Shown: in pieces, positions 1,199 through 27,589 of the stretch
Layout of the letters: every line of letters begins with the position of its first letter
Position numbering within the stretch: the stretch's first letter is position 1
Source of the DNA: Eukaryota sp. GEM-RC1
Taxonomy: Eukaryota
DNA: 64,000 nt
Reading direction: 5' to 3'
Assembly: GCA_040285855.1 (NCBI GenBank)
Contig: JAUFOQ010000010.1
Coordinates: 434,001 to 498,000, forward strand
Position numbers and translations under genes: made by a program
The notes under the pieces: generated by a model
Database searches by the model: none
What the model saw: only the letters and a program-made list of their open reading frames with translations
What the model was told of the DNA's origin: nothing

Positions 1199-2650
1199 AT
1201 GTCTCACTATCTCTGTGATATTTGTCATGGAATTCTCAAGAATCCGGTAACTACTTGGTGTGGCCACACCTTTTGTATGTCGGATTTGCAGGAGTGGCTT
1301 GTTTCTCATAACGGATGTCCGATCTGTCGAGCTGAAGTGGACAAGTCAAGGCTGTGTCCTAACTACAAGTTGAAAGAAGCTGTTGAAGCCTTTGTTGCTG
1401 GTCAAGGTGAGACTATTTGTTTTGAGTGTGATGAAGCTGCTGCCACTTGTTATTGCGCAGATTGTGACGCTGATTTCTGTGACAACTGTTTTAACCCTGC
1501 GCATCGCCCCAAGTTGCTACGATCTCATGTTGCTGTCCCCCTAAATAAGAAGCATGCCTACCTTGTTCCTAAGTGCCCCAGCCACAACATGAAGTCGTTA
1601 GAGTTGTTCTGCACCTTCTGCTCCGTTGCCCTTTGTTCCACGTGTGCTTTCCTTGGTGACCATGACCAACACAAGAAGAAGTTGCTTCCCTTCGATGAAG
1701 GTCGAACCTCTGTTGAAAAGAATATCAACTCAATTAATCAAGAGTTGTCGTTAGGCATTGAAAAAATATCACAGTCAGCTGAAGCTGCTATCCAGCAAGC
1801 AACAAGTGGTTTTGTCCAACTCAAAGAAAGTCTGACTCTCCTGCTGCAAGAAACTATGTTAGACTCTGCTACCATTATGAATGACTTACAATCTGGGAAA
1901 CCTGTCATTTTTACGCCAAAGATCAGCGAAAAATTCACTACCACCACTTCAACCCTTCTCAACAACCAATCTAATATCATCTCCTCTTTAAATGAAGAAC
2001 TGTTCTCCATCCACTCCGATGCTTCTCGTCGTTTGACCTCTCTTTCCGTTGATTCGGAGTCTAGTGTTGCTTCTGCTAGGCTTCTAGAAGACCCTCCTTT
2101 ACCAATCAAGTGCATTGAAAGTGTCTGCCCTGTACAACAAGTTGAAGAGAAGAAACTTGTTATTGATTGGAGCAAGCTTAGCTCTAAGTTGAAGAGTTGT
2201 TATGGTCAGATGGTGAGAAATGAGGTTTCTACGATCAATCTAGACATCAACTCAATTGGTACTGAAGGCGCTATTGCAATTGCTGAAGCTTTGAAGGTGA
2301 ATTCTTCACTTTCTACGATCAATCTAAATAACAACTCAATTGGTAATGAAGGCGCTATTGCAATTACTGAAGCTTTGAAGGTGAATTCTTCACTTTCTAC
2401 GATCTATCTATATAACAACTCAATTGGTACTGAAGGCGCTATTGCAATTGCTGAAGCTTTGAAGGTGAATTCTTCACTTTCTACGATCAATCTAAATAAC
2501 AACTCAATTGGTAATGAAGGCGCTATTGCAATTGCTGAAGCTTTGAAGGTGAATTCTTCACTTTCTACGATCAATCTAAATAACAACTCAATCAACAGTC
2601 AAACACAACAGTCGTTAAAATCTCTACACCAGAACAGAGTGTATTTTTAG
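1199..2650 (+). CDS. TRIM/RBCC-like protein with C-terminal RI-type LRRs (RING, B-box1, B-box2, helical linker, 4 LRRs plus cap); putative E3 ubiquitin ligase
   Basis: Intact ORF from ATG 1199. RING CDIC..CGHTFCMSD..CPIC (sixth ligand is Asp), B-box CFEC..CADC..CDNC..H..H, B-box CPSH..CTFC..CSTC..H..H, then 28-aa repeats xxTIxLxxNSIGxEGAIAIAEALKVNSS. Confidence 0.9.
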   Translation: MSHYLCDICHGILKNPVTTWCGHTFCMSDLQEWLVSHNGCPICRAEVDKSRLCPNYKLKEAVEAFVAGQGETICFECDEAAATCYCADCDADFCDNCFNPAHRPKLLRSHVAVPLNKKHAYLVPKCPSHNMKSLELFCTFCSVALCSTCAFLGDHDQHKKKLLPFDEGRTSVEKNINSINQELSLGIEKISQSAEAAIQQATSGFVQLKESLTLLLQETMLDSATIMNDLQSGKPVIFTPKISEKFTTTTSTLLNNQSNIISSLNEELFSIHSDASRRLTSLSVDSESSVASARLLEDPPLPIKCIESVCPVQQVEEKKLVIDWSKLSSKLKSCYGQMVRNEVSTINLDINSIGTEGAIAIAEALKVNSSLSTINLNNNSIGNEGAIAITEALKVNSSLSTIYLYNNSIGTEGAIAIAEALKVNSSLSTINLNNNSIGNEGAIAIAEALKVNSSLSTINLNNNSINSQTQQSLKSLHQNRVYF

Positions 2651-3542
2651 ACATGTTTTTCTTGGATATAAAGATCACATTTTTCAATCACAAATAATTT
2701 CTTATCAGAAACACCATAATTAAACGGTGAATGTATAAAACACTTCAAAAATGATTTAGCTCAGAACAATCATTGTCCCGAACAAAACTCAGAAGTGACT
2801 CACCACAGATAATCAAATATCATGGCTGTTTAGCTGATGTTGAGATACATATTTTAACTACTACTCTGGTGAGTAACACACATCATATTTACTCAGCTGG
2901 TGCTTTTGCGATTGTTCCCAATAACACCAGACATTTATTAGTATCTGAAATAGTGTTTATACTATATACTTACCAATATTTGGAATTGCCAACATTCAAT
3001 CTCATTATTAACACGACTATATTATCCTTTGAGAAGCTTCACTGTCAATATATGATGCTTGGATTATTCTCAGTGATGATTCATATACGTGTTTTTGCAT
3101 TTTTTCAGTAAATCTGACAGTGATAGACAAAGAATTACCAAAACTGTTTCATTGAATATTGCAGTCAATAGCAAGAACACAAATGGCGGCGTTGAATTTA
3201 CGAAGACTCAGTGAAACTATTTTGCTTTCTGCAGTTTTTACATAGGCAAGTAAAAGCTATTGAAATTAAAGAGTATGAATTTGTAATCTTTGTTAACTGA
3301 TTGTTGAGAATTTATTCGCAAATTACAGATATTTTACCAGAAGAAAGAGTGTATATATAGACTTTTTTAATACTGGTTAGAAGTAATATTATTATTTTGT
3401 CTTTGTGTCAAGACACAAAACCGGTTTTTGTACATCTTAACTTATGTAACATATACTAGGTGACACAGCAGTGGATATGTATTCTGTAGACTATCTGAAA
3501 AACACAAAACGTAATTGATAAGGCTTTGAAGAAACACGCGGA

Positions 3543-4373
3543 GTCGTCTTTAAGCCAAAGATCAGCGAAAAATTCACTGCCACCACTTCAACCCTTCTCA
3601 ACAACCAATCTAATATCATCTCCTCTTTAAATGAAGAACTGTTCTCCATCCACTCCGATGCTTCTCGTCGTTTGACCTCTCTTTCCGTTGATTCGGAGTC
3701 TAGTGTTGCTTCTGCTAGGCTTCTAGAAGACCCTCCTTTACCAATCAAGTGCATTGAAAGTGTCTGCCCTGTACAACAAGTTGAAGAGAAGAAACTTGTT
3801 ATTGATTGGAGCAAGCTTAGCTCTAAGTTGAAGAGTTGTTATGATCAAATGGTGAGAAATGAGGTTTCTACGATCAATCTAGACAGCAACTCAATTGGTC
3901 CTGAAGGTGCTATTGCAATTGCTGAAGCTTTGAAGGTGAATTCTTCACTTTCTACGATCTATCTAAATAACAACTCAATTGGTAATGAAGGCGCTATTGC
4001 AATTGCTGAAGCTTTGAAGGTGAATTCTTCACTTTCTACGATCAATCTATATATCAACTCAATTGGTACTGAAGGCGCTATTGCAATTGCTGAAGCTTTG
4101 AAGGTGAATTCTTCACTTTCTACGATCAATCTATATAACAACTCAATTGGTACTGAAGGCGCTATTGCAATTGCTGAAGCTTTGAAGGTGAATTCTTCAC
4201 TTTCTACGATCTATCTACATAACAACTCAATTGGTACTGAAGGCGCTATTGCAATTGCTGAAGCTTTGAAGGTGAATTCTTCACTTTCTACGATCGGTCT
4301 ATCTAACAACTCAATCAACAGTCAAACACAACAGTCGTTAAAATCTCTACACCAGAACAGAGTGTATTTTTAG
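3543..4373 (+). pseudogene. Cassette A1: 5'-truncated TRIM-LRR copy, 5 LRRs plus cap
   Basis: Homology to the gene starts at the codon equivalent to 1904. In-frame TGA TAA lies just upstream (3516-3521). The frame is open to TAG and the only ATG is at MVRNE. Confidence 0.85.
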
Positions 4374-5264
4374 ACATGTTTTTCTTGGATATAAAGATCA
4401 CATTTTTCAATCACAAATAATTTCTTATCAGAAACACCATAATTAAACGGTGAATGTATAAAACACTTCAAAAATGATTTAGCTCAGAACAATCATTGTC
4501 CCGAACAAAACTCAGAAGTGACTCACCACAGATAATCAAATATCATGGCTGTTTAGCTGATGTTGAGATACATATTTTAACTACTACTCTGGTGAGTAAC
4601 ACACATCATATTTACTCAGCTGGTGCTTTTGCGATTGTTCCCAATAACACCAGACATTTATTAGTATCTGAAATAGTGTTTATACTATATACTTACCAAT
4701 ATTTGGAATTGCCAACATTCAATCTCATTATTAACACGACTATATTATCCTTTGAGAAGCTTCACTGTCAATATATGATGCTTGGATTATTCTCAGTGAT
4801 GATTCATATACGTGTTTTTGCATTTTTTCAGTAAATCTGACAGTGATAGACAAAGAATTACCAAAACTGTTTCATTGAATATTGCAGTCAATAGCAAGAA
4901 CACAAATGGCGGCGTTGAATTTACGAAGACTCAGTGAAACTATTTTGCTTTCTGCAGTTTTTACATAGGCAAGTAAAAGCTATTGAAATTAAAGAGTATG
5001 AATTTGTAATCTTTGTTAAATGATTGTTGAGAATTTATTCGCAAATTACAGATATTTTACCAGAAGAAAGAGTGTATATATAGACTTTTTAATACTGGTT
5101 AGAAGTAATATTATTATTTTGTCTTTGTGTCAAGACACAAAACCGGTTTTTGTACATCTTAACTTATGTAACATATACTAGGTGACACAGCAGTGGATAT
5201 GTATTCTGTAGACTATCTGAAAAACACAAAACGTAATTGATAAGGCTTTGAAGAAACACGCGGA

Positions 5265-6179
5265 GTCGTCTTTAAGCCAAAGATCAGCGAAAAATTCACT
5301 GCCACCACTTCAACCCTTCTCAACAACCAATCTAATATCATCTCCTCTTTAAATGAAGAACTGTTCTCCATCCACTCCGATGCTTCTCGTCGTTTGACCT
5401 CTCTTTCCGTTGATTCGGAGTCTAGTGTTGCTTCTGCTAGGCTTCTAGAAGACCCTCCTTTACCAATCAAGTGCATTGAAAGTGTCTGCCCTGTACAACA
5501 AGTTGAAGAGAAGAAACTTGTTATTGATTGGAGCAAGCTTAGCTCTAAGTTGAAGAGTTGTTATGATCAAATGGTGAGAAATGAGGTTTCTACGATCAAT
5601 CTAGACAGCAACTCAATTGGTCCTGAAGGTGCTATTGCAATTGCTGAAGCTTTGAAGGTGAATTCTTCACTTTCTACGATCTATCTAAATAACAACTCAA
5701 TTGGTAATGAAGGCGCTATTGCAATTGCTGAAGCTTTGAAGGTGAATTCTTCACTTTCTACGATCAATCTATATATCAACTCAATTGGTACTGAAGGCGC
5801 TATTGCAATTGCTGAAGCTTTGAAGGTGAATTCTTCACTTTCTACGATCAATCTATATAACAACTCAATTGGTACTGAAGGCGCTATTGCAATTGCTGAA
5901 GCTTTGAAGGTGAATTCTTCACTTTCTACGATCTATCTACATAACAACTCAATTGGTACTGAAGGCGCTATTGCAATTGCTGAAGCTTTGAAGGTGAATT
6001 CTTCACTTTCTACGATCTATCTACATAACAACTCAATTGGTAATGAAGGCGCTATTGCAATTGCTGAAGCTTTGAAGGTGAATTCTTCACTTTCTACGAT
6101 CGGTCTATCTAACAACTCAATCAACAGTCAAACACAACAGTCGTTAAAATCTCTACACCAGAACAGAGTGTATTTTTAG
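5265..6179 (+). pseudogene. Cassette A2: 6 LRRs plus cap
   Basis: Same 5' junction (aaacacgcgga|gtcgtctttaag). One extra IYLHNN module relative to A1. Confidence 0.85.
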
Positions 6180-7070
6180 ACATGTTTTTCTTGGATATAA
6201 AGATCACATTTTTCAATCACAAATAATTTCTTATCAGAAACACCATAATTAAACGGTGAATGTATAAAACACTTCAAAAATGATTTAGCTCAGAACAATC
6301 ATTGTCCCGAACAAAACTCAGAAGTGACTCACCACAGATAATCAAATATCATGGCTGTTTAGCTGATGTTGAGATACATATTTTAACTACTACTCTGGTG
6401 AGTAACACACATCATATTTACTCAGCTGGTGCTTTTGCGATTGTTCCCAATAACACCAGACATTTATTAGTATCTGAAATAGTGTTTATACTATATACTT
6501 ACCAATATTTGGAATTGCCAACATTCAATCTCATTATTAACACGACTATATTATCCTTTGAGAAGCTTCACTGTCAATATATGATGCTTGGATTATTCTC
6601 AGTGATGATTCATATACGTGTTTTTGCATTTTTTCAGTAAATCTGACAGTGATAGACAAAGAATTACCAAAACTGTTTCATTGAATATTGCAGTCAATAG
6701 CAAGAACACAAATGGCGGCGTTGAATTTACGAAGACTCAGTGAAACTATTTTGCTTTCTGCAGTTTTTACATAGGCAAGTAAAAGCTATTGAAATTAAAG
6801 AGTATGAATTTGTAATCTTTGTTAACTGATTGTTGAGAATTTATTCGCAAATTACAGATATTTTACCAGAAGAAAGAGTGTATATATAGACTTTTTAATA
6901 CTGGTTAGAAGTAATATTATTATTTTGTCTTTGTGTCAAGACACAAAACCGGTTTTTGTACATCTTAACTTATGTAACATATACTAGGTGACACAGCAGT
7001 GGATATGTATTCTGTAGACTATCTGAAAAACACAAAACGTAATTGATAAGGCTTTGAAGAAACACGCGGA

Positions 7071-7985
7071 GTCGTCTTTAAGCCAAAGATCAGCGAAAAA
7101 TTCACTGCCACCACTTCAACCCTTCTCAACAACCAATCTAATATCATCTCCTCTTTAAATGAAGAACTGTTCTCCATCCACTCCGATGCTTCTCGTCGTT
7201 TGACCTCTCTTTCCGTTGATTCGGAGTCTAGTGTTGCTTCTGCTAGGCTTCTAGAAGACCCTCCTTTACCAATCAAGTGCATTGAAAGTGTCTGCCCTGT
7301 ACAACAAGTTGAAGAGAAGAAACTTGTTATTGATTGGAGCAAGCTTAGCTCTAAGTTGAAGAGTTGTTATGATCAAATGGTGAGAAATGAGGTTTCTACG
7401 ATCAATCTAGACAGCAACTCAATTGGTAATGAAGGCGCTATTGCAATTGCTGAAGCTTTGAAGGTGAATTCTTCACTTTCTACGATCTATCTATATAACA
7501 ACTCAATTGGTCCTGAAGCCGCTATTGCAATTGCTGAAGCTTTGAAGGTGAATTCTTCACTTTCTAGAATCGATCTAAATAACAACTCAATTGGTAATGA
7601 AGGCGCTATTGCAATTGCTGAAGCTTTGAAGGTGAATTCTTCACTTTCTACGATCAATCTATATAACAACTCAATTGGTACTGAAGGCGCTATTGCAATT
7701 GCTGAAGCTTTGAAGGTGAATTCTTCACTTTCTACGATCTATCTACATAACAACTCAATTGGTACTGAAGGCGCTATTGCAATTGCTGAAGCTTTGAAGG
7801 TGAATTCTTCACTTTCTACGATCTATCTACATAACAACTCAATTGGTAATGAAGGCGCTATTGCAATTGCTGAAGCTTTGAAGGTGAATTCTTCACTTTC
7901 TACGATCGGTCTATCTAACAACTCAATCAACAGTCAAACACAACAGTCGTTAAAATCTCTACACCAGAACAGAGTGTATTTTTAG
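7071..7985 (+). pseudogene. Cassette A3: 6 LRRs plus cap
   Basis: Same junction. First three modules differ from A2 (including RIDLNNN); the last three and the cap match A2. Confidence 0.85.
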
Positions 7986-10515: not shown

Positions 10516-11262
10516 GTCGTCTTTAAGCCAAAGATCAGCGAAAAATTCACTACCACCACTTCAACCCTTCTCAACAACCAATCTAATATCATCTCCTCTT
10601 TAAATGAAGAACTGTTCTCCATCCACTCCGATGCTTCTCGTCGTTTGACCTCTCTTTCCGTTGATTCGGAGTCTAGTGTTGCTTCTGCTAGGCTTCTAGA
10701 AGACCCTCCTTTACCAATCAAGTGCATTGAAAGTGTCTGCCCTGTACAACAAGTTGAAGAGAAGAAACTTGTTATTGATTGGAGCAAGCTTAGCTCTAAG
10801 TTGAAGAGTTGTTATGATCAAATGGTGAGAAATGAGGTTTCTACGATCAATCTAGACAGCAACTCAATTGGTAATGAAGGCGCTATTGCAATTGCTGAAG
10901 CTTTGAAGGTGAATTCTTCACTTTCTACGATCAATCTAAATAACAACTCAATTGGTAATGAAGGCGCTATTGCAATTGCTGAAGCTTTGAAGGTGAATTC
11001 TTCACTTTCTACGATCTATCTATATAACAACTCAATTGGTACTGAAGGCGCTATTGCAATTGCTGAAGCTTTGAAGGTGAATTCTTCACTTTCTACGATC
11101 AATCTAAATAACAACTCAATTGGTAATGAAGGCGCTATTGCAATTGCTGAAGCTTTGAAGGTGAATTCTTCACTTTCTACGATCAATCTAAATAACAACT
11201 CAATCAACAGTCAAACACAACAGTCGTTAAAATCTCTACACCAGAACAGAGTGTATTTTTAG
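10516..11262 (+). pseudogene. Cassette A5: 4 LRRs plus cap
   Basis: Same junction. Modules 2 to cap match those of the intact gene. Confidence 0.85.
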
Positions 11263-11698: not shown

Positions 11699-12570
11699 TA
11701 GAGATGGGAGCCGGCTCAATTTAGCCGGCTGAGCCGGCTAGCCGAGCCAGCCGACTGGTCCAGAATAGAAAAATTTTCAGCTGCAAGCCGGCTGGCTAAA
11801 TATGTTTTTAGCCGGCTCAAGCCGAATATTTTAGGTTCTCAGAAAACATAGCTAATAAAGAACGAATGATGAATTTAGAAATCGAAAATATCATTTACAG
11901 CGCTTTACAGAACAGTTTAGGGCTACTAATGTTTATCAACGTTCGAGCAACAGTAGAATTGGTGAATATAGTTGATATGTGTCAAATAATTGCCCTACTG
12001 TTTTTCTTGGGCACTGATAGTACATTCAGTGCCTTATGTACATTGTCGCAGTGTCTATTTCTGACACTTTAAATGTCTATTACATCTTTTGCTTCCAAAT
12101 AAACCGCTATACTTGTGTTCCGAGACAGTAAAAAACCTAGAGTCCGTCAGAGCTCTTCCTCCAACGACTTTGTTTCTTTAGGACTAATTAAGCTCCTTCT
12201 CAAAAGTACTATCGTACTGTTGTCATATTTTAGGCAGACAGCCAATTCCATAGTGGTGTTTCGATTGTTTCACAGATTCAAGCGATAACTAACCGTCAAG
12301 TATATAAGTGATAATCACAAAAATATGTGACATGTAAAATCTGTGAAAACTGGAATGTACTGATCAATAGTATCAGCATTGTGTCGTTTTGATACTCGGT
12401 GTAGTTGTCATTAACAATGGTTCTGAATCATTTTATTGATATATCAACCAACATGCGGCTGAGCCGGCTTTAGCCGGCTTGAGCTGGCTAAAATGCGTTG
12501 TAAGCCGCAGCCGGCTGGCTAATGCCTGCGGCTTAGCCGTGAGCAAATTTTGAGCCGGCTCCCATCTATA
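11699..12570. mobile_element. Non-autonomous hAT-like element (MITE), 872 bp
   Basis: 21-bp TIR TA(G/T)AGATGGGAGCCGGCTCAA, perfect 8-bp TSD ATTCATAT (11691-11698 and 12571-12578), subterminal AGCCGGCT repeats. The empty site is visible in the other array A spacers. Confidence 0.92.
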
Positions 12571-13033: not shown

Positions 13034-14675
13034 GTCGTCTTTAAGCCAAAGATCAGCGAAAAATTCACTACCACCACTTCAACCCTTCTCAACAACCAAT
13101 CTAATATCATCTCCTCTTTAAATGAAGAACTGTTCTCCATCCACTCCGATGCTTCTCGTCGTTTGACCTCTCTTTCCGTTGATTCGGAGTCTAGTGTTGC
13201 TTCTGCTAGGCTTCTAGAAGACCCTCCTTTACCAATCAAGTGCATTGAAAGTGTCTGCCCTGTACAACAAGTTGAAGAGAAGAAACTTGTTATTGATTGG
13301 AGCAAGCTTAGCTCTAAGTTGAAGAGTTGTTATGATCAAATGGTGAGAAATGAGGTTTCTACGATCAATCTAGACAGCAACTCAATTGGTAATGAAGGCG
13401 CTATTGCAATTGCTGAAGCTTTGAAGGTGAATTCTTCACTTTCTACGATCAATCTATATAGCAACTCAATTGGTAATGAAGGCGCTATTGCAATTGCTGA
13501 AGCTTTGAAGGTGAATTCTTCACTTTCTACGATCAATCTAAATAACAACTCAATTGGTAATGAAGGCGCTATTGCAATTGCTGAAGCTTTGAAGGTGAAT
13601 TCTTCACTTTCAACCATAGTTGCAAAATACAAAATACAGTATTTTTTTGTATTCTGTATTTTTTCTGTATTATGTTTTGTATTTTTTTCTGGACAAGTGT
13701 ATTTGTATTTTTTGTATTTATTTATCAGCCCGAAAATCCCTTTAATTGATGAAAATGACTGAAGTCATTGAGAGCAACACTCGACAGCGGATCTTTCTGA
13801 TCAATTGTACTATTGTTTGGAACAATTGGCACATGTATTATTTTAACAACTTGCAGAAATGCTAGTACAACTGTTTGCTGAATTTTCGAAACGTTCCAGT
13901 ACAGTACGTCAACGGCGTATGCTAGATGACTAAAAAGTGAAACACCGACCAAAGTCAAGTAACAAAAATTTAGAAACGCTTAATAATGTTCTTTCCAAAG
14001 AGTTGAAAAATACCAAACCATGTGAAGTTGTGCAATCTAGTTTCACTACTGTCAGTCAGTGATGAAGATTTAAAGCCCTGATGAGACGAGCTGCACGACA
14101 CTCAGATTGATCCTGTTTTGAAGATGTACGTGTAGTCTTTGGAGACTATGATTTCGAGTATATACATTTTTACCTACACTCGATGTATAAAGACGATTTA
14201 CAACTAATGTGCGAGACAAAAAGTGTCCAAAGTCACATTGTAAAACTGTACGACTCCACGTCAGTTCTTTCCGTGGACCAAGTGCACATTTGAACCCTCG
14301 GTGCATTTCAGAATCGAAATAACAATTGGGTTGATAAATGAAAAAAGTCTAAGAATGTGTACTGAAGAGGTGAACCATGATAACCCTGAAAATCAATCAC
14401 GTTTGCAGTCATTGGACTCAATACACTTGGTTTAATACTTGCAATTACTAGAAAGAAAAACAATTAATACAGTATTCTGTATTGTATTTGTATTCTGTAT
14501 TCTGTATTGTATTTTTGTAAATTTATTCTGTATTTTTTGTATTCTGTATTGTATTATTTTTTTGTCCGTGTATTTTGCAACTATGCTTTCAACGATCTAT
14601 CTACATAACAACTCAATCAACAGTCAAACACAACAGTCGTTAAAATCTCTACACCAGAACAGAGTGTATTTTTAG
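13034..14675 (+). pseudogene. Cassette A6: 3 LRRs plus cap, interrupted by a MITE
   Basis: Same junction. The LRR frame is broken at 13615 and resumes after 14585 (IYLHNN cap). Confidence 0.85.
13615..14585. mobile_element. Non-autonomous hAT-like element (MITE), 971 bp
   Basis: Perfect 17-bp TIR CATAGTTGCAAAATACA, 8-bp TSD CTTTCAAC (13607-13614 and 14586-14593), TGTATT-rich subterminal repeats. Confidence 0.93.
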
Positions 14676-15566: not shown

Positions 15567-16565
15567 GTCGTCTTTAAGCCAAAGATCAGCGAAAAATTCA
15601 CTACCACCACTTCAACCCTTCTCAACAACCAATCTAATATCATCTCCTCTTTAAATGAAGAACTTTTCTCCATCCACTCCGATGCTTCTCGTCGTTTGAC
15701 CTCTCTTTCCGTTGATTCGGAGTCTATTGTTGCTTCTGCTAGGCTTCTAGAAGACCCTCCTTTACCAATCAAGTGCATTGAAAGTGTCTGCCCTGTACAA
15801 CAAGTTGAAGAGAAGAAACTTGTTATTGATTGGAGCAAGCTTAGCTCTAAGTTGAAGAGTTGTTATGATCAAATGGTGAGAAATGAGGTTTCTACGATCA
15901 ATCTAGACAGCAACTCAATTGGTAATGAAGGCGCTATTGCAATTGCTGAAGCTTTGAAGGTGAATTCTTCACTTTCTACGATCAATCTATATAACAACTC
16001 AATTGGTAATGAAGGCGCTATTGCAATTGCTGAAGCTTTGAAGGTGAATTCTTCACTTTCTACGATCAATCTAAATAACAACTCAATTGGTCCTGAAGGC
16101 GCTATTGCAATTGCTGAAGCTTTGAAGGTGAATTCTTCACTTTCTACGATCTCTCTATATAACAACTCAATTGGTCCTGAAGGCGCTATTGCAATTGCTG
16201 AAGCTTTGAAGGTGAATTCTTCACTTTCTACGATCTCTCTATATAACAACTCAATTGGTCCTGAAGGCGCTATTGCAATTGCTGAAGCTTTGAAGGTGAA
16301 TTCTTCACTTTCTACGATCTCTCTATATAACAACTCAATTGGTCCTGAAGGCGCTATTGCAATTGCTGAAGCTTTGAAGGTGAATTCTTCACTTTCTACG
16401 ATCTCTCTATATAACAACTCAATTGGTCCTGAAGGCGCTATTGCAATTGCTGAAGCTTTGAAGGTGAATTCGTTTGTTTCTACGATTGGTCTAGGTAACA
16501 ACTCAATCAACAGTCAAATACAACAGTCATTAAAATCACTGCACAAGAATAGAATTCGTTTTTAA
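15567..16565 (+). pseudogene. Cassette A7: 7 LRRs plus cap, A/B chimera
   Basis: Type-A upstream spacer and linker, but ISLYNN x4, FVSTIGLGNN and the cap QIQQSLKSLHKNRIRF plus 3' flank are type B. Confidence 0.85.
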
Positions 16566-17125: not shown

Positions 17126-17299
17126 ATTTCTCATTTCTATCTATCTAACAACTCAATTGTTCCTGAAGGCGCTACTGCAATTGCTGAAGCTTTGAAGGTG
17201 AATTCTTCACTGTCTACGATCTATCTAGGTGACAACTCAATTAACAGTCAAACACAACAGTCGTTAAAATCACTGCACAAGAATAGAATTCGTTTCTAA
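17126..17299 (+). pseudogene. Cassette B1: 1 LRR plus cap
   Basis: LRR homology begins at att tct cat ttc tat cta. There is no in-frame ATG (the ORF call uses TTG). Confidence 0.8.
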
Positions 17300-17859
17300 A
17301 GATATTTTCCTCTGATATAAAGATCACCCCATTAGAAGTCACACATGAACAAATATCAAAGCAGTTTAGCAGTCGATCATACATAGATTGATTTTCAGTT
17401 TTACCCGGTAATTAAGACTCGTCATATCGAAAAGTTCATTTGCTATTGTTTTCAACAACACCAGGTATTAATTGGTATCTGGAAATGATGTAACATTATA
17501 CTATATTTTTCGAAATATTTCGAATCACCGACACATTGTCTCGTTGTTAACACGGTTACATTTTTTCTCAAAAAACAGCTTAATCGTCCTTGAGTTGAGT
17601 GATGCTTTGATTATTCTCAGTGATATAAAAGATGTACAGTATCCTTTTGTATGTGTTCCATAGATATTTTAGTCATGGTAATTTGTTGAATATTGGTCAA
17701 AATTAGGTTGTTCGTTAGACTCTGTTTTAGTGATCTGTAATTTAATTGGAAATCTTGTCGCACAATTGTCTTAACATACAAAGTAGGTCTTTGATTATCT
17801 TAAATCTAACGTTATCTAAGCTTCTCTTCAATAGACATGTGTTCTATAAACCGGCTAGA

Positions 17860-18033
17860 ATTTCTCATTTCTATCTATCTAACAACTCAATTGTTCCTGA
17901 AGGCGCTACTGCAATTGCTGAAGCTTTGAAGGTGAATTCTTCACTGTCTACGATCTATCTAGGTGACAACTCAATTAACAGTCAAACACAACAGTCGTTA
18001 AAATCACTGCACAAGAATAGAATTCGTTTCTAA
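17860..18033 (+). pseudogene. Cassette B2: 1 LRR plus cap
   Basis: Copy of B1, 734 bp downstream. Confidence 0.8.
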
Positions 18034-18555
18034 AGATATTTTCCTCTGATATAAAGATCACCCCATTATAAGTCACACATGAACAAATATCAAAGCAGTT
18101 TAGCAGTCGATCATACATAGATTGATTTTCAGTTTTACCCGGTAATTAAGACTCGTCATATCGAAAAGTTCATTTGCTATTGTTTTCAACAACACCACGT
18201 ATTAATTGGTATCTGGAAATGAAGTAACATTATACTATATGTTTCGAAATATTTCGAATCACCGACACATTGTCTCGCTGTTAACACGGTTGTATTTTTT
18301 CTCAAAAAACAGCTTAATTGTCCTTGAGTTGAGTGATGCTTTGATTATTCTCAGTGATATATAAGATGTACAGTATCCTTTTGTATGTGTTCCATAGATA
18401 TTTTAGTCATGGTAATTTATTGAATATTGGTCAAAATTAGATTGTTCGTTAGATTCTGTTTTAGTGATCTGTTATTTAATTGGAAATCTTGTCGCGCACT
18501 CTTAACATACAAAGTAGGTCTTTGCTTATCTTAAATTGAGTGTATTATCTAACGC

Positions 18556-20288
18556 ATGAAGTCGTTAGAGTTGTTCTGCACCTTCTGCTCCGTCGCCCTT
18601 TGTTCCACGTGTGCTTTCCTTGGTGACCATGACCAACACAAAAAGAAGTTGCTTCCCTTCAATGAAGGTCGAACCTCCATTGAAAAGAATATTAACTCCA
18701 TTAATCAAGAGTTGTCGTTAGCCATTGAAAAATATCACAGTCAGCTGAAGCTGCCATCCAGCAAGCAACAAATGGTTTTGTCCAACTCAAAGAAAGTCTG
18801 ACTGTCATTTTGCAAGAAACTATGTTAGATTCTGCTACCATTATGAATAACTTACAATCTGGGAAACCTGTCGTGTTTAAGCCAAAGATCAGCGAAAAAT
18901 TCACTACCACCACATCAACCCTTCTCAACAACCAATCTGATGTCATTACTTCTTTAAATGAAGAACTTTGCTCTATCCACTCCGATGCTTCTCGTCGTTT
19001 GACCTCTCTTTCCGTTGATTCGGAGTCCAGTGTTCCTTCTGCTAGGCTTTTAGATGATACTCCTTTACCAATCAAGTCTATTGACAGTTTATGCCCTGTG
19101 CAACAAGTTCAAGAGAAGAAGCTTGTTATTGATTGGAGCAAGCTTAGCTCTAAGTTGAAGAATTGTTATGATCAAATGGTGAGAAATGAGGTTTCTACGA
19201 TTTATCTAGGTAACTACTCAATTGGTCCTGAAGGTGCTATTGCAATTGTTGAAGCTTTGAAGGTGAATTCGTCTGTTTCTACGATCAATCTGTATATCAA
19301 CTCAATTGGTCCTGAAGGCACTATTGCAATTGCTGAAGCTTTAAAGGTGAATTCTTCTGTTTCTACGATCGATCTACGTAGCAACTCAATTGGTCCTGAA
19401 GGCACTATTGCAATTGCTGAAGCTTTGAAGGTGAATTCGTCTGTTTCTCAGATCGATCTACGTAGCAACTCAATTGGTCCTGAAGGTGCTATTGCAATTG
19501 CTGAAGCTTTGAAGGTGAATTCGTCTGTTTCTCAGATCGATCTACGTAGCAACTCAATTGGTCCGGAAGGCGCTATTGCAATTGCTGAAGCTTTGAAGGT
19601 GAATTCTTCAGTTTCTTCGATTTATCTAAATAACAACTCAATTGGTCCGGAAGGCGCTATTGCAATTGCTGAAGCTTTGAAGGTGAATTCTTCACTTTCT
19701 ACGATCTATCTATATAACAACTCAATTGGTACTGAAGGCGCTATTGCAATTGCTGAAGCTTTGAAGGTGAATTCTTCACTTTCTACGATCTATCTATATA
19801 ACAACTCAATTGGTCCTGAAGGCGCTATTGCAATTGCTGAGGCTTTGAAGGTGAATTCGTCTGTTTCTACGATTGGTCTAGGTAACAACTCAATTGGTCC
19901 TGAAGGCGCTATTGCAATTGCTGAAGCTTTGAAGGTGAATTCTTCACTTTCTACGATCTCTCTATATAACAACTCAATTGGTCCTGAAGGCGCTATTGCA
20001 ATTGCTGAGGCTTTGAAGGTGAATTCGTCTGTTTCTACGATTGGTCTAGGTAACAACTCAATTGGTAATGAAGGCGCTATTGCAATTGCTGAGGCTTTGA
20101 AGGTGAATTCGTTTGTTTCTACGATCTATCTAGGTAACAACTCAATTGGTAATGAAGGCGCTATTGCAATTGCTGAAGCTTTGAAGGTGAATTCTTCACT
20201 GTCTACGATCTATCTAGGTAACAACTCAATCAACAGTCAAATACAACAGTCATTAAAATCACTGCACAAGAATAGAATTCGTTTTTAA
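18556..20288 (+). pseudogene. Long 5'-truncated paralogue of the TRIM-LRR gene (half of B-box2, linker, 12 LRRs plus cap) with a 1-bp frameshift
   Basis: Homology starts at the ATG equivalent to gene position 1589, so RING and B-box1 are absent. A5 instead of A6 at about 18728-18732 shifts the frame, which could be a homopolymer error. Confidence 0.85.
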
Positions 20289-20848
20289 AGATATTTTCCT
20301 CTGATATAAAGATCACCCCATTATAAGTCGCACATGAAGAAATATCAATGTTGTTTAGCAGTTGATCATACACAGATTGATTTTCAGTTTTACCCGGTAA
20401 TTAAGACTCGTCATATCGAAAAGTTCATTTGCTATTGTTTTCAACAACACCAGGTATTAATTGGTATCTGGAAATGATGTAACATTATACTATATTTTTC
20501 GAAATATTTCGAATCACCGACACATTGTCTCGCTGTTAACACGGTTACATTTTTTCTCAAAAAACAGCTTAATCGTCCTTGAGTTGAGTGATGCTTTGAT
20601 TATTCTCAGTGATATAAAAGATGTACAGTATCCTTTTGTATGTGTTCCATAGATATTTTAGTCATGGTAATTTGTTGAATATTGGTCAAAATTTGGTTGT
20701 TCGTTAGACTCTGTTTTAGTGATCTGTAATTTAATTGGAAATCTTGTCGCACAATTGTCTTAACATACAAAGTAGGTCTTTGATTATCTTAAATCTAACG
20801 TTATCTAAGCTTCTCTTCAATGGACATGTGTTCTATAAACCGGCTAGA

Positions 20849-23800
20849 ATTTCTCATTTCTATCTATCTAACAACTCAATTGTTCCTGAAGGCGCTATTG
20901 CAATTGCTGAAGCTTTGAAGGTGAATTCGTCTGTTTCTCACATTCATGTCTCTTACAACTCAATTGGTAATGAAGGCGCTATTGCAATTGCTGAAGCTTT
21001 GAAGGTGAATTCTTCAGTTTCTACGATTTATCTATATAACAACTCAATTGGTAATGAAGGCGCTATTGCAATTGCTGAAGCTTTGAAGGTGAATTCTTCA
21101 CTGTCTACGATCTATCTAGGTAACAACTCAATCAACAGTCAAATACAACAGTCATTAAAATCACTGCACAAGAATAGAATTCGTTTTTAAAGATATTTTC
21201 CTCTGATATAAAGATCACCCCATTATAAGTCGCACATGAAGAAATATCAATGTTGTTTAGCAGTTGATCATACACAGATTGATTTTCAGTTTTACCCGGT
21301 AATTAAGACTCGTCATATCGAAAAGTTCATTTGCTATTGTTTTCAACAACACCAGGTATTAATTGGTATCTGGAAATGATGTAACATTATACTATATTTT
21401 TCGAAATATTTCGAATCACCGACACATTGTCTCGCTGTTAACACGGTTACATTTTTTCTCAAAAAACAGCTTAATCGTCCTTGAGTTGAGTGATGCTTTG
21501 ATTATTCTCAGTGATATAAAAGATGTACAGTATCCTTTTGTATGTGTTCCATAGATATTTTAGTCATGGTAATTTGTTGAATATTGGTCAAAATTAGGTT
21601 GTTCGTTAGACTCTGTTTTAGTGATCTGTAATTTAATTGGAAATCTTGTCGCACAATTGTCTTAACATACAAAGTAGGTCTTTGATTATCTTAAATCTAA
21701 CGTTATCTAAGCTTCTCTTCAATAGACATGTGTTCTATAAACCGGCTAGAATTTCTCATTTCTATCTATCTAACAACTCAATTGTTCCTGAAGGCGCTAT
21801 TGCAATTGCTGAAGCTTTGAAGGTGAATTCGTCTGTTTCTCACATTCATGTCTCTTACAACTCAATTGGTAATGAAGGCGCTATTGCAATTGCTGAAGCT
21901 TTGAAGGTGAATTCTTCAGTTTCTACGATCTATCTAGGTAACAACTCAATTGGTAATGAAGGCGCTATTGCAATTGCTGAAGCTTTGAAGGTGAATTCTT
22001 CACTGTCTACGATCTATCTAAGTAACAACTCAATCAACAGTCAAATACAACAGTCATTAAAATCACTGCACAAGAATAGAATTCGTTTTTAAAGATATTT
22101 TCCTCTGATATAAAGATCACCCCATTATAAGTCGCACATGAAGAAATATCAATGTTGTTTAGCAGTTGTTGATACACAGATTGATTTTCAGTTTTACCCG
22201 GTAATTAAGACTCGTCATATCGAAAAGTTCATTTGCTATTGTTTTCAACAACACCAGGTATTAATTGGTATCTGGAAATGATGTATCATTATGCTATATT
22301 TTTCGAAATATTTCGAATCACCGACACATTGTCTCGTTGTTAACACGGTTACATTTTTTCTCAAAAAACAGCTTAATCGTCCTTGAGTTGAGTGATGCTT
22401 TGATTATTCTCAGTGATATAAAAGATGTACAGTATCCTTTTGTATGTGTTCCATAGATATTTTAGTCATGGTAATTTGTTGAATATTGGTCAAAATTAGG
22501 TTGTTCGTTAGACTCTGTTTTAGTGATCTGTAATTTAATTGGAAATCTTGTCGCACAATTGTCTTAACATACAAAGTAGGTCTTTGATTATCTTAAATCT
22601 AACGTTAGCTAAGCTTCTCTTCAATAGACATGTGTTCTATAAACCGGCTAGAATTTCTCATTTCTATCTATCTAACAACTCAATTGTTCCTGAAGGCGCT
22701 ATTGCAATTGCTGAAGCTTTGAAGGTGAATTCGTCTGTTTCTCACATTCATGTCTCTTACAACTCAATTGGTAATGAAGGCGCTATTGCAATTGCTGAAG
22801 CTTTGAAGGTGAATTCTTCAGTTTCTACGATTTATCTATATAACAACTCAATTGGTAATGAAGGCGCTATTGCAATTGCTGAAGCTTTGAAGGTGAATTC
22901 TTCACTGTCTACGATCTATCTAGGTAACAACTCAATCAACAGTCAAATACAACAGTCATTAAAATCACTGCACAAGAATAGAATTCGTTTTTAAAGATAT
23001 TTTCCTCTGATATAAAGATCACCCCATTATAAGTCGCACATGAAGAAATATCAATGTTGTTTAGCAGTTGTTGATACACAGATTGATTTTCAGTTTTACC
23101 CGGTAATTAAGACTCGTCATATCGAAAAGTTCATTTGCTATTGTTTTCAACAACACCAGGTATTAATTGGTATCTGGAAATGATGTAACATTATACTATA
23201 TTTTTCGAAATATTTCGAATCACCGACACATTGTCTCGCTGTTAACACGGTTACATTTTTTCTCAAAAAACAGCTTAATCGTCCTTGAGTTGAGTGATGC
23301 TTTGATTATTCTCAGTGATATAAAAGATGTACAGTATCCTTTTGTATGTGTTCCATAGATATTTTAGTCATGGTAATTTGTTGAATATTGGTCAAAATTA
23401 GGTTGTTCGTTAGACTCTGTTTTAGTGATCTGTAATTTAATTGGAAATCTTGTCGCACAATTGTCTTAACATACAAAGTAGGTCTTTGATTATCTTAAAT
23501 CTAACGTTATCTAAGCTTCTCTTCAATAGACATGTGTTCTATAAACCGGCTAGAATTTCTCATTTCTATCTATCTAACAACTCAATTGTTCCTGAAGGCG
23601 CTATTGCAATTGCTGAAGCTTTGAAGGTGAATTCGTCTGTTTCTCACATTCATGTCTCTTACAACTCAATTGGTAATGAAGGCGCTATTGCAATTGCTGA
23701 AGCTTTGAAGGTGAATTCTTCAGTTTCTACGATTTATCTATATAACAACTCAATTGGTAATGAAGGCGCTATTGCAATTGCTGAAGCTTTGAAGGTGAAT

Positions 23801-26800
23801 TCTTCACTGTCTACGATCTATCTAAGTAACAACTCAATCAACAGTCAAATACAACAGTCATTAAAATCACTGCACAAGAATAGAATTCGTTTTTAAAGAT
23901 ATTTTCCTCTGATATAAAGATCACCCCATTATAAGTCGCACATGAAGAAATATCAATGTTGTTTAGCAGTTGTTGATACACAGATTGATTTTCAGTTTTA
24001 CCCGGTAATTAAGACTCGTCATATCGAAAAGTTCATTTGCTGTTGTTTTCAACAACACCAGGTATTAATTGGTATCTGGAAATGATGTAACATTATGCTA
24101 TATTTTTCGAAATATTTCGAATCACCGACACATTGTCTCGTTGTTAACACGGTTACATTTTTTCTCAAAAAACAGCTTAATCGTCCTTGAGTTGAGTGAT
24201 GCTTTGATTATTCTCAGTGATATAAAAGATGTACAGTATCCTTTTGTATGTGTTCCATAGATATTTTAGTCATGGTAATTTGTTGAATATTGGTCAAAAT
24301 TAGGTTGTTCGTTAGACTCTGTTTTAGTGATCTGTAATTTAATTGGAAATCTTGTCGCACAATTGTCTTAACATACAAAGTAGGTCTTTGATTATCTTAA
24401 ATCTAACGTTATCTAAGCTTCTCTTCAATAGACATGTGTTCTATAAACCGGCTAGAATTTCTCATTTCTATCTATCTAACAACTCAATTGTTCCTGAAGG
24501 CGCTATTGCAATTGCTGAAGCTTTGAAGGTGAATTCGTCTGTTTCTCACATTCATGTCTCTTACAACTCAATTGGTAATGAAGGCGCTATTGCAATTGCT
24601 GAAGCTTTGAAGGTGAATTCTTCAGTTTCTACGATTTATCTATATAACAACTCAATTGGTAATGAAGGCGCTATTGCAATTGCTGAAGCTTTGAAGGTGA
24701 ATTCTTCACTGTCTACGATCTATCTAGGTAACAACTCAATCAACAGTCAAATACAACAGTCATTAAAATCACTGCACAAGAATAGAATTCGTTTTTAAAG
24801 ATATTTTCCTCTGATATAAAGATCACCCCATTATAAGTCGCACATGAAGAAATATCAATGTTGTTTAGCAGTTGTTGATACACAGATTGATTTTCAGTTT
24901 TACCCGGTAATTAAGACTCGTCATGTCATATCGAAAAGTTCATTTGCTATTGTTTTCAACAACACCAGGTATTAATTGGTATCTGGAAATGATGTAACAT
25001 TATACTATATTTTTCGAAATATTTCGAATCACCGACACATTTTCTCCTTGTTAACACGGTTACATTTTTTCTCAAAAAACAGCTTAATCGTCCTTGAGTT
25101 GAGTGATGCTTTGATTATTCTCAGTGATATAAAAGATGTACAGTATCCTTTTGTATGTGTTCCATAGATATTTTAGTCATGGTAATTTGTTGAATATTGG
25201 TCAAAATTAGGTTGTTCGTTAGACTCTGTTTTAGTGATCTGTAATTTAATTGGAAATCTTGTCGCACAATTGTCTTAACATACAAAGTAGGTCTTTGATT
25301 ATCTTAAATCTAACGTTATCTAAGCTTCTCTTCAATAGACATGTGTTCTATAAACCGGCTAGAATTTCTCATTTCTATCTATCTAACAACTCAATTGTTC
25401 CTGAAGGCGCTATTGCAATTGCTGAAGCTTTGAAGGTGAATTCGTCTGTTTCTCACATTCATGTCTCTTACAACTCAATTGGTAATGAAGGCGCTATTGC
25501 AATTGCTGAAGCTTTGAAGGTGAATTCTTCAGTTTCTACGATTTATCTATATAACAACTCAATTGGTAATGAAGGCGCTATTGCAATTGCTGAAGCTTTG
25601 AAGGTGAATTCTTCACTGTCTACGATCTATCTAGGTAACAACTCAATCAACAGTCAAATACAACAGTCATTAAAATCACTGCACAAGAATAGAATTCGTT
25701 TTTAAAGATATTTTCCTCTGATATAAAGATCACCCCATTATAAGTCGCACATGAAGAAATATCAATGTTGTTTAGCAGTTGTTGATACACAGATTGATTT
25801 TCAGTTTTACCCGGTAATTAAGACTCGTCATGTCATATCGAAAAGTTCATTTGCTATTGTTTTCAACAACACCAGGTATTAATTGGTATCTGGAAATGAT
25901 GTAACATTATACTATATTTTTCGAAATATTTCGAATCACCGACACATTGTCTCGTTGTTAACACGGTTACATTTTTTCTCAAAAAACAGCTTAATCGTCC
26001 TTGAGTTGAGTGATGCTTTGATTATTCTCAGTGATATAAAAGATGTACAGTATCCTTTTGTATGTGTTCCATAGATATTTTAGTCATGGTAATTTGTTGA
26101 ATATTGGTCAAAATTAGGTTGTTCGTTAGACTCTGTTTTAGTGATCTGTAATTTAATTGGAAATCTTGTCGCACAATTGTCTTAACATACAAAGTAGGTC
26201 TTTGATTATCTTAAATCTAACGTTATCTAAGCTTCTCTTCAATAGACATGTGTTCTATAAACCGGCTAGAATTTCTCATTTCTATCTATCTAACAACTCA
26301 ATTGTTCCTGAAGGCGCTATTGCAATTGCTGAAGCTTTGAAGGTGAATTCGTCTGTTTCTCACATTCATGTCTCTTACAACTCAATTGGTAATGAAGGCG
26401 CTATTGCAATTGCTGAAGCTTTGAAGGTGAATTCTTCAGTTTCTACGATTTATCTATATAACAACTCAATTGGTAATGAAGGCGCTATTGCAATTGCTGA
26501 AGCTTTGAAGGTGAATTCTTCAGTTTCTAAGATTATTCTAGATATCAACTCAATTAACAGTCAAACACAGCAGTCATTAAAATCACTGCACAAGAATAGA
26601 ATTCGTTTCTGAAGATATTTTCCTCAGTTATAAAGATCACCCCATTTTCAGTCACACATGAACAAATATCAAAGCGGTTTAAAAGTTGTTCATACACATA
26701 TTTATTTTCAGTTTTACCTGATCATCAAGACACGTCATATCAAAAGTTCATTTGCTATTGTTTTCAACAACACCACGTATTAATTGGTATCTGGAAATGA

Positions 26801-27510
26801 TGTAACATTATACTATATGTTTCGAAATATTTCGAATCACCGACACATTGTCTCGTCATAAACACGGTTGTATTTTTTCTCAAAAAACAGCTTAATCGTC
26901 CTTGAGTTGAGTGATGCTTTGATTATTCTCAGTGATATTAAAGATGTACAGTATCCTTTTGTATGTGTTCCATAGATATTTCAGTCATGGTAATTTGTTG
27001 AATATTGGTCAAAATTAGGTTGTTCGTTAGACTCTGTTTTAGTGATCTGTAATTTAATTGGAAATCTTGTCGCACAATTGTCTTAACATACAAAGAAGGT
27101 CTTTGATTATCTTAAATCTAACGTTATCTAAGCTTCTCTTCAATAGACATGTGTTCTATAAACCGGCTAGAATTTCTCATTTCTATCTATCTAACAACTC
27201 AATTGGTCCTGAAGGCGCTATTGCAATTGCTGAAGCTTTGAAGGTGAATTCGTCTGTTTCTACGATCAATCTACATAACAACTCAATTGGTCCTAAAGGC
27301 GCTATTGCAATTGCTGAAGCTTTGAAGGTGAATTCGTCTGTTTCTCACATTCATCTTTATAACAACTCAATTGGTAATGAAGGCGCTATTGCAATTGCTG
27401 AAGCTTTGAAGGTGAATTCGTCTGTTTCTACGATTTATCTAGATAACAACTCAATTAACAGTCAAACACAACAGTCGTTAAAAACACTACACAAGAATAG
27501 AATTCATTTC
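20849..27510 (+). pseudogene. Cassettes B3-B10: eight LRR-only cassettes, 3 LRRs plus cap each (starts 20849, 21751, 22653, 23555, 24457, 25364, 26271, 27172)
   Basis: Open frames without any Met. Mostly identical, with variants IYLGNN/IYLSNN/IILDIN/IYLDNN in the cap. B10 differs in all modules and has lost its stop codon. Confidence 0.82.
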
Positions 27511-27589
27511 AGATTTGCAGATTCCTACATTTTTCAAAAACTGTTCGTAAAAAATTAACAAATCTTAATTAAAATTAATATTTAACAAT

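What the first reader, a model, noticed from the sequence alone, without database searches (positions are those of the whole stretch)
2225..27460. LRR variation is confined to a few codons on the concave beta-strand with almost no synonymous change
Seen: across about 77 full 84-bp modules and 19 terminal modules the scaffold (aac tca att ggt ... gaa ggc gct att gca att gct gaa gct ttg aag gtg aat) is nearly invariant. The x positions of xIxLxxN vary, often by 2-nt changes: aat/tat/ggt/gat/tct/cat/att; gac/aat/tat/cat/tct/ggt/cgt/agt/gat; aac/atc/agc/tac/gac; acg/aga/cag/tcg/cac/aag. The codon after Gly is aat/act/cct. Established: these x residues form the ligand-binding concave face of LRR solenoids, as in VLRs and plant NLRs. 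Inference: diversifying selection on the binding surface combined with homogenisation of the scaffold. This is unexpected if the cassettes were dead copies.
Basis: partly seen in the sequence, partly recalled or inferred. Interest (0 to 1): 0.78.

Follow-up and report, generated by a model that had tools for sequence, protein, structure and literature searches.

The report
Shuffled binding repeats in protist ligase
A protist gene predicted to encode a TRIM-type ubiquitin ligase ends in near-identical leucine-rich repeats that differ mainly at five codons on or beside the predicted binding face and recur in reshuffled order in 18 headless tandem copies, likely a diversifying sensor of the kind known from fungal immune receptors.

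Summary
The counts are exact: 77 full and 19 terminal 84-bp modules, only 37 of the 77 distinct. They belong to one complete RING–B-box–B-box–helical–LRR (TRIM-like) gene (1199–2650) and 18 tandem copies lacking its 5' end; the closest named relatives are from the metamonad Skoliomonas sp. GEM-RC. Amino-acid change concentrates at codons 2, 4, 6, 7 (strand and following loop) and 12 (helix start). pN/pS is 3.4 against all synonymous sites, 2.0 against local ones and 0.27 in the scaffold, and five paralogues vary at the same positions. 'Almost no synonymous change' holds only for the first block (15 synonymous alleles overall). The two-base differences are mostly chains of single steps. Homogenisation plus diversifying selection is supported. 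'Unexpected if dead copies' is not: copies with 0–1 substitutions in 893 bp of flank differ by reshuffled modules, which inheritance and recombination explain. This works like fungal NLR high-internal-conservation repeats, here with LRRs on a TRIM-like ligase. A DGR mechanism was tested and rejected. Expression, a donor role for the copies and the ligand are untested.

The parts
1199..2650 (+). Gene 1, the only complete gene: single ORF of 483 aa, RING (aa 6-43, sixth ligand Asp) - B-box 1 (74-111) - B-box 2 (124-160) - long helices (about 166-280) - linker - 4 LRR modules - terminal module and cap
2228..2650 (+). LRR array of gene 1 (4 full modules, terminal module at 2564)
3543..4373 (+). 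A1: headless copy (322-bp linker, 5 modules, cap), followed by about 890 bp of type-A flank
5265..6179 (+). A2: headless copy, 6 modules
7071..7985 (+). A3: headless copy, 6 modules; its third module (x residues R-D-N-N) matches a repeat of paralogue P0004 at 27 of 28 residues
8877..9623 (+). A4: headless copy, 4 modules
10516..11262 (+). A5: headless copy, 4 modules; modules 2-4 and cap equal those of gene 1 except one base
11699..12570 (.). Non-autonomous element with terminal inverted repeats and 8-bp target duplication in the flank after A5 (hAT-like by recalled criteria)
13034..14675 (+). A6: headless copy, 3 modules, reading frame broken by an insertion before the terminal module
13615..14585 (.). 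Second non-autonomous element with 8-bp target duplication, inside A6; a 78% identical copy lies at 30197-31106
15567..16565 (+). A7: chimaera of type-A linker and modules with a type-B terminal module, cap and flank; 7 modules, three of them identical
17129..18033 (+). B1 and B2: short headless copies (1 module and cap each; 17129-17299, 17863-18033)
18556..20288 (+). Gene 2: copy starting inside B-box 2 (no RING, no B-box 1), one-base gap in an A run near 18727, 12 modules and cap
20852..27507 (+). B3-B10: eight short headless copies at about 900-bp spacing, 3 modules and cap each; public gene models read five of them (B4, B6-B9) as two-exon genes with a hydrophobic start; B10 has lost its stop codon

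Best explanation
The variable codons are likely the target-binding face of a predicted TRIM-type ubiquitin ligase whose LRR modules are likely kept near-identical by recombination while selection in working family members likely keeps five surface codons diverse, and the 18 headless copies are likely recent duplicates that inherit and reshuffle those alleles. Shown: the domain order of gene 1, the module counts, the concentration of amino-acid change, the mosaic order of modules, and identical modules between units whose linkers and caps have diverged. Inferred: unequal crossing-over and gene conversion as the engine; diversifying selection acting in full-length genes; a recognise-and-ubiquitinate role against fast-changing cytosolic targets such as ingested bacteria, their proteins or viruses. 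The copies probably make no ligase of their own, because all lack RING and B-box 1. They can still feed new module combinations into gene 1 by ordinary recombination, with no dedicated machinery.
For: Pfam RING and two B-boxes in TRIM order, long helices between B-box 2 and the LRR in the model, TRIM-like spacing against PMC2533329. Ribonuclease-inhibitor-like solenoid, pLDDT 93.7, pTM 0.89, codons 2-4 on the strand in all 13 turns. pN/pS 3.4 (module bootstrap 2.8-4.3), local 2.0 (1.5-3.1), scaffold 0.27. Allele counts 22 nonsynonymous to 3 synonymous at codons 2, 4, 6, 7 against 12 to 11 in the scaffold. Same five positions variable in 26 distinct modules of five paralogues (entropy 1.4-3.1 bits, all other positions 0.74 or less). 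Minimum 8 recombination intervals within 84 bp, with all four combinations between bases 10 and 16. A2 and A3: no substitution in 893 bp of flank or 322 bp of linker, yet 11 of 90 differences at the variable codons. 14 of 22 cassette-only modules carry no base absent from gene 1/gene 2 modules at that site. Gene 1's tail matches A5 while its flank matches A1-A3. Same regime described for fungal NLR repeats (PMC4986451, PMC12222747).
Against: pN/pS values are uncorrected pairwise and allele counts, not recombination-aware, and the bootstrap treats related modules as independent. Synonymous diversity is itself raised in codons 2-8 (0.186 against 0.086), and in B copies the local ratio is 1.2 (0.86-1.7). 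RING has Asp at the sixth zinc ligand and residues 1-71 model at pLDDT below 50; Pfam TRIM_CC was not hit. No evidence of expression, ligase activity or ligand was obtained. Public models read five B copies as spliced genes, so 'non-coding' is not settled for them. The top fold matches of the LRR are structural flagellar proteins, so the fold does not imply immunity.
Confidence: 0.6

Rival explanations
1. The headless copies are a maintained library of silent cassettes that are copied into gene 1 (an expression site) by directed or somatic gene conversion, as in antigenic variation or VLR assembly (both recalled).
For: All seven A copies share 322 bp of linker homology with gene 1, and six of seven keep an open frame to the stop. 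Gene 1's last three modules and cap match A5 while its flank matches A1-A3. 22 of 25 distinct cassette modules are absent from gene 1 and gene 2. Gene models starting at internal methionines of the same family lie on two other contigs.
Against: Gene 1 is complete, not an empty germline locus. The copies are plain head-to-tail duplications, and intact frames are expected at their age. A6 is broken by a transposon and B10 lost its stop. B3-B9 and the end of A7 drift towards sameness. The short gene models elsewhere could be assembly frameshifts or mispredictions. No recombinase or signal sequence was looked for beyond the Pfam scans.
Confidence: 0.12
2. The copies are themselves expressed: A copies as LRR-only proteins from the ATG six codons before the first module or as alternative 3' exons of gene 1, and B copies as small spliced, possibly secreted LRR proteins acting as decoys or competitors.
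For: A1 reads MVRNEV-LRR-cap, 174 aa. All 10 B copies keep an ATG, a GTATGT donor, a 138-nt gap ending in AG and an open second exon, and five match public gene models with a hydrophobic start.
Against: That ATG and donor lie in old 3' flank DNA whose type-A homologue lacks them, and the same signals before gene 2 run into a stop after 6 codons. 25 open codons arise by chance with probability 0.17. B copies carry scaffold changes G11V and I3F. The A-type start omits most of the N-cap helix of the model.
Confidence: 0.13
3. No positive selection: exposed codons are merely tolerant, the scaffold is under purifying selection, and conversion tracts that stop at mismatches leave the strand segment with an older genealogy.
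For: Synonymous diversity is twice as high in codons 2-8 as elsewhere (0.186 against 0.086; 0.116 against 0.009 in the A block), and the B-copy local ratio spans 1. Counting only synonymous alleles at the four codons gives 1.7 overall and 1.0 in the A block.
Against: Against local synonymous sites the ratio is still 2.0 (1.5-3.1) overall and 3.0 (1.9-6.5) in gene 2. Third positions of the exposed codons are not enriched. Exposed codons 1 and 9 do not vary while 2, 4, 6, 7 do.
Confidence: 0.1
4. The mosaic is partly an assembly artefact: short-read polishing of a long-read assembly mixed or flattened near-identical repeats.
For: The named organism's assembly used R9.4 nanopore reads with Illumina correction (PMC11316075). 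One-base gaps in homopolymers occur in flanks and in gene 2. Short-read assemblies gave chimaeric repeats in fungal NLRs (PMC12222747).
Against: Units keep private SNP blocks, a 5-bp indel and two insertions with target duplications. Variation sits at codon positions 1-2, which sequencing error does not select. Paralogues on other contigs vary at the same sites. An artefact could alter individual modules, not the site pattern.
Confidence: 0.04
5. A diversity-generating-retroelement-like process mutates adenines of AAY codons.
For: At codons 4, 6, 7 and 12 the alleles radiate from AAT/AAC, with first and second bases changing and third bases nearly fixed.
Against: Synonymous third-position adenines of codons 9, 13 and 17 never change, and 10 of 12 scaffold first/second-position adenines never do. 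Paralogues carry W, E, Q and A at codon 6. No reverse transcriptase domain among the 66 window frames scanned.
Confidence: 0.01

Closest known systems
Fungal NLRs with high internal conservation (Podospora HNWD het-d/het-e WD40; ANK and TPR NLRs; PMC4986451, PMC12222747)
   Same: Repeats over 85% identical, concerted evolution within and between paralogues, repeat-number variation, a few hypervariable codons on the predicted binding face.
   Different: Here the repeat is a 28-residue LRR (the fungal survey found none), there is no NACHT/NB-ARC domain, the N-terminus is RING-B-box, and 18 headless copies stand in tandem behind the gene.
TRIM/RBCC ubiquitin ligases (PMC2533329, PMC3503706)
   Same: RING, B-box 1, B-box 2 and long helices in the fixed order, with B1-B2 and B2-to-C-terminal spacing in the human range.
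   Different: The C-terminal domain is an LRR array; neither survey contains the word 'leucine', and the non-animal TRIMs they describe carry MATH. RING-B1 spacing is 30 against 35-55, and the sixth RING ligand is Asp.
Ectocarpus ROCO LRR and NB-ARC-TPR genes (PMC3341825)
   Same: LRR shuffling within and between loci, non-coding LRR copies proposed as a reservoir, diversifying selection.
   Different: There each repeat is an exon and the spare copies sit in introns; here the array is one ORF and the spare copies are tandem duplications of the gene's 3' end.
Ribonuclease-inhibitor/NOD2-type LRR solenoid
   Same: 28-residue strand-loop-helix repeat; TM-score up to 0.90 to solved structures.
   Different: The solved relatives have divergent repeats (16-34% identity to this model); none is RING-linked.
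Lamprey VLR assembly and silent-cassette antigenic variation (recalled, no call)
   Same: Partial gene copies near a complete or expressed locus, with sequence exchange between them.
   Different: No incomplete germline gene, and no evidence of directed or somatic copying; the product is predicted to be cytosolic.

Membership tests
Fungal HIC-repeat NLRs | Central NACHT or NB-ARC domain | tested here: not met
   No such Pfam family in gene 1 or gene 2. Not an NLR; it only works like one in its repeat evolution.
Fungal HIC-repeat NLRs | Repeats over 85% identical across 100 aa or more | tested here: met
   Gene 1 modules differ at 4 or fewer of 28 residues over 112 aa; mean nucleotide identity of 37 distinct modules 90.4%.
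Fungal HIC-repeat NLRs | Concerted evolution within and between paralogues, with repeat-number variation | tested here: met
   Identical module in gene 1, A4, A5 and gene 2; 1-12 modules per unit; Rm 8. Variation between individuals could not be examined.
Fungal HIC-repeat NLRs | Positive selection at a few binding-face codons | tested here: met
   pN/pS 2.0-3.4 at codons 2, 4, 6, 7 by simple counts; not by recombination-aware models. Face assigned from secondary structure and LRR convention, not from solvent-accessibility values.
Fungal HIC-repeat NLRs | Non-self recognition function | not testable with these tools
   Needs bench work.
TRIM/RBCC | N-terminal RING | tested here: met
   PF13923 35.9 bits (cut-off 27), PF00097 28.6 (21); sixth ligand Asp; model pLDDT below 50 there.
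TRIM/RBCC | B-box 1 then B-box 2 after the RING | tested here: met
   PF00643 two stretches, 44.4 bits; PF22586 at 74-111 just under cut-off (26.1 against 27).
TRIM/RBCC | Coiled coil after B-box 2 | tested here: inconclusive
   Model helices 167-221, 225-232, 245-281 at pLDDT about 60-70; Pfam TRIM_CC not hit; no coiled-coil predictor or dimer model run.
TRIM/RBCC | E3 ligase activity | not testable with these tools
   Needs an assay.
VLR-type or silent-cassette programmed assembly | Incomplete germline gene filled in from flanking cassettes | tested here: not met
   Gene 1 is a complete ORF with its own LRR array.
VLR-type or silent-cassette programmed assembly | Somatic or directed copying into one expressed site | not testable with these tools
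Diversity-generating retroelement | Adenine-specific mutation across the variable region | tested here: not met
   Synonymous adenines at codons 9, 13, 17 invariant in all modules.
Diversity-generating retroelement | Linked reverse transcriptase | tested here: not met
   None in 66 window frames scanned with Pfam; the rest of the genome was not available.

The most novel reading that the evidence does not exclude
A free-living anaerobic protist keeps a library of silent LRR cassettes behind a TRIM-type ligase gene and copies them into it during growth, so that a clonal population carries many target specificities: an adaptive-like intracellular defence built on ubiquitin, in a lineage far from animals, plants and fungi.
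Probability: 0.12. Interest if true: 0.9.

Novelty: new variant of a known kind. Interest (0 to 1): 0.5.

Why it matters
How single-celled eukaryotes recognise fast-changing invaders is largely open. This locus shows the homogenise-and-diversify regime of fungal NLR repeats on a different repeat (LRR) and a different effector (RING-B-box), in a metamonad. RBCC plus LRR was found only in this family among the 150 best of 1.84 billion representatives. The array makes the question testable: long reads from a clone can show whether gene 1 takes modules from its headless copies, and 29 natural five-residue combinations on one scaffold give a ready binding panel. If the copies are only passive duplicates, it remains a clear but familiar arms-race signature.

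Tried and rejected
No whole genome was held, so other loci were seen only as predicted proteins. Sequencing runs: none was listed, which is no evidence on expression; no reads were laid. Metagenome scan with the N-terminal 290 aa: 36 pattern hits, none confirmed. The ESM Atlas did not answer. Earlier findings of the scan: nothing for this genome or sequence; one unrelated bacterial note, not used. DGR reading tested and rejected. I first read the B-type gene models as dispersed copies because their locus numbers are far apart; one search showed all four sequences (five accessions) equal window copies B4 and B6-B9, so I dropped that reading. Retroposition as origin of the headless copies was considered and set aside: the junctions show no poly(A). 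Gene 1, gene 2 from its second methionine, and A1-A5 and A7 from their first methionine are not in the protein collection as exact sequences; this says nothing about expression. The full-length model was poor outside the LRR (pTM 0.40). Complex prediction was not used, as no partner is known. No codon-model (PAML/HyPhy-type) analysis was run.
Full report
Observation. An anchor search finds exactly 77 full 84-bp modules and 19 terminal modules from 2228 to about 27507. Only 37 of the 77 are distinct in DNA and 36 in protein. Using the six exposed x positions of LxxLxLxxNxL fixed in advance, 21 of 35 extra amino acids fall there (398 of 376,740 six-codon sets do as well), as do 19 of 33 first/second-position alleles (P=7e-6). 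Two of the six (codons 1 and 9) never change amino acid.

Synonymous change. Counting each distinct allele once, codons 2, 4, 6, 7 carry 22 nonsynonymous and 3 synonymous alleles, codon 12 carries 2 and 1, and the scaffold 12 and 11. 'Almost none' is therefore true only of gene 1 plus A1-A6 (32 full and 6 terminal modules; 14 and 3). Dropping the 10 junction modules and one insertion-site terminal module gave the same picture (22 and 2; scaffold 9 and 10). Pairwise over the 37 distinct modules, pN at the four codons is 0.366, pS over the module 0.107 and scaffold pN 0.029, giving ratios 3.4 and 0.27. Synonymous diversity is higher in codons 2-8 (0.186) than elsewhere (0.086), so the local ratio is 2.0 (bootstrap 1.5-3.1): 3.0 in gene 2, 1.9 in the A block and 1.2 (0.86-1.7) in the six distinct non-junction B modules. 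The six a-priori codons give 2.5. These are uncorrected counts on recombining, related sequences, so they support diversifying selection without proving it. The apparent two-base jumps dissolve: at codons 4, 6, 7 and 12 every codon is linked to the others by single steps, and at codon 2 all but one.

What the modules belong to. One complete ORF, 1199-2650 (483 aa), has a RING, two B-boxes and LRR_6 repeats, with long helices between B-box 2 and the LRR in the model. Spacing is 30, about 13 and about 183 residues against 35-55, 13-20 and 170-220 in human TRIMs (PMC2533329, passages). The sixth RING ligand is Asp, or His in three relatives, and the RING modelled poorly. The best full-length relatives (62-80% identity) are named proteins of Eukaryota sp. 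GEM-RC1, a Skoliomonas metamonad from soda-lake sediment (PMC11316075, passages and section 6); I take the window to be from that organism. Behind gene 1 stand 18 copies without the 5' end. Seven type-A copies begin 322 bp before the LRR. Ten type-B copies begin at an LRR module. Gene 2 begins inside B-box 2 and has a one-base gap in an A run that may be real or a sequencing error. Two non-autonomous elements with 8-bp target duplications are inserted, one breaking A6.

Structure. The gene 2 LRR region models at pLDDT 93.7 and pTM 0.89 as 13 regular strand-loop-helix turns, matching ribonuclease inhibitor, NLR LRRs and flagellar LRR proteins. Codons 2-4 form the strand, 6 and 7 lie in the loop after it, and 12 is in the first helix turn. 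By LRR convention the strand/turn x residues line the concave face (PMC3138743, passages). The tool returns no coordinates, so exposure was not computed.

Where the diversity comes from. Gene 1 and A1-A3 differ by 0-1 substitutions in 893 bp of flank. A2 and A3 also have identical linkers but differ at 11 of 90 bases in the five variable codons and 2 of 414 elsewhere. Point mutation since duplication cannot supply that; shuffling can. The modules need at least 8 recombination intervals, with all four combinations between sites six bases apart. One module is identical in gene 1, A4, A5 and gene 2, although gene 1 and gene 2 differ at pS 0.18 in the linker and 0.41 in the cap. A7 joins a type-A head to a type-B tail and flank. 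Gene 1's last three modules and cap match A5 (one base apart) while its flank matches A1-A3; the direction of that exchange cannot be told. 14 of 22 cassette-only modules contain no base absent from gene 1/gene 2 modules, and one of the other eight closely matches a repeat of paralogue P0004. In 26 distinct modules of five paralogues, three of them full length on two other contigs, the same five positions vary and include W, E, Q, A and R. Seven older LRR ORFs in the rest of the window are only 52-82% identical between repeats (an eighth gave no matches), so high conservation is particular to this family.

Are the copies dead? Signs of no constraint are the broken A6, the lost stop of B10, G11V in 9 B modules and runs of identical modules. 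Signs the other way are six open A frames and public models that read five B copies as two-exon genes with a hydrophobic start. That first exon lies in old flank DNA whose type-A homologue lacks the ATG and donor, and the same signals before gene 2 hit a stop, so it may be fortuitous. Short models starting at internal methionines also occur on two other contigs, which hints that the layout recurs but may reflect assembly frameshifts. Without reads the question is open.

DGR test. The alleles radiate from AAY, which recalls adenine mutagenesis. But synonymous adenines at codons 9, 13 and 17 never vary, 10 of 12 scaffold first/second-position adenines never vary, and 66 window frames hold no reverse transcriptase. 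Rejected.

Comparison with the known. Fungal NLRs with high internal conservation show the same regime: repeats over 85% identical, concerted evolution, number variation and a few selected codons on the binding face, in WD, ANK and TPR but not LRR (PMC4986451 and PMC12222747, passages). Ectocarpus ROCO genes shuffle LRR exons with non-coding copies as a proposed reservoir (PMC3341825, abstract and section 15). Non-animal TRIMs were described with MATH domains (PMC3503706, passages). Among the 150 best representatives for the N-terminal 290 residues, the 146 new ones included none with two or more RI-type LRR motifs, and Pfam found no LRR in the 30 scanned. Searches for this system in print found nothing: TRIM + B-box + LRR + protist + positive selection, 0 papers; Skoliomonas + LRR, 0; some searches returned only the comparators above or unrelated listings. 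The library lacks most subscription papers, and I read no supplements, where the genome paper's gene tables could mention the family. VLR and antigenic-variation comparisons, and the hAT label, are recalled.

Verdict. The locus works like fungal HIC repeats but is not an NLR; it is a TRIM-like gene with an LRR sensor and a train of headless copies. New variant of a known kind, interest 0.5. A directed cassette system is not excluded (about 12%).

Noticed in passing
window 28393-57634: A cluster of further RI-type LRR genes with divergent repeats; most share an unnamed N-terminal region (QQSLL.L..LHLLRRL...VGYVS.HFFES) with no Pfam match, and several are split by frameshifts or stops (39094/39095, 41259/41596, 56547-57634).
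   Followed up: partly
window 35072-36300: A Sina-type RING frame (35072-35362) overlaps an LRR frame (35296-36300), suggesting a second, frameshifted RING-LRR gene; a RING-LRR model without B-boxes (P0210) exists elsewhere in the named organism.
   Followed up: partly
P0007: A paralogue keeps the same RING-B-box-helical part but has a non-LRR C-terminus, and P0036 has another N-terminus with the same LRR scaffold and cap, pointing to domain swapping in the family.
   Followed up: no
P0252-P0263: Unnamed RING-B-box-B-box relatives at 31-39% identity carry other C-terminal regions with no Pfam hit at E 1e-5, some SPRY-like by eye; a wider non-MATH TRIM-like radiation may exist in this group.
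   Followed up: partly
window 27507-28000: Sequence that replaces the stop codon of B10 resembles by eye the broken C-terminal end of a non-LTR retrotransposon; no Pfam hit; a short match at 54320-54374.
   Followed up: partly
window 13615-14585, 30197-31106, 48115-48720: A family of non-autonomous elements with GTATT-rich subterminal repeats; a different element at 11699-12570.
   Followed up: partly
window 62119-63501 (-): Sodium:dicarboxylate symporter family gene (PF00375), single ORF.
   Followed up: no
window 63609-63866: 30-bp tandem array (about 8 copies) of unknown role.
   Followed up: no
window 40678-40974: 98-aa frame with a weak HEPN-like Pfam hit (E 7e-5, below cut-off) upstream of a split LRR gene; probably chance.
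   Followed up: no
window 46709-47506 (-): 265-aa ORF with one N-terminal hydrophobic segment and an acidic, Cys-containing remainder; no Pfam match.
   Followed up: no
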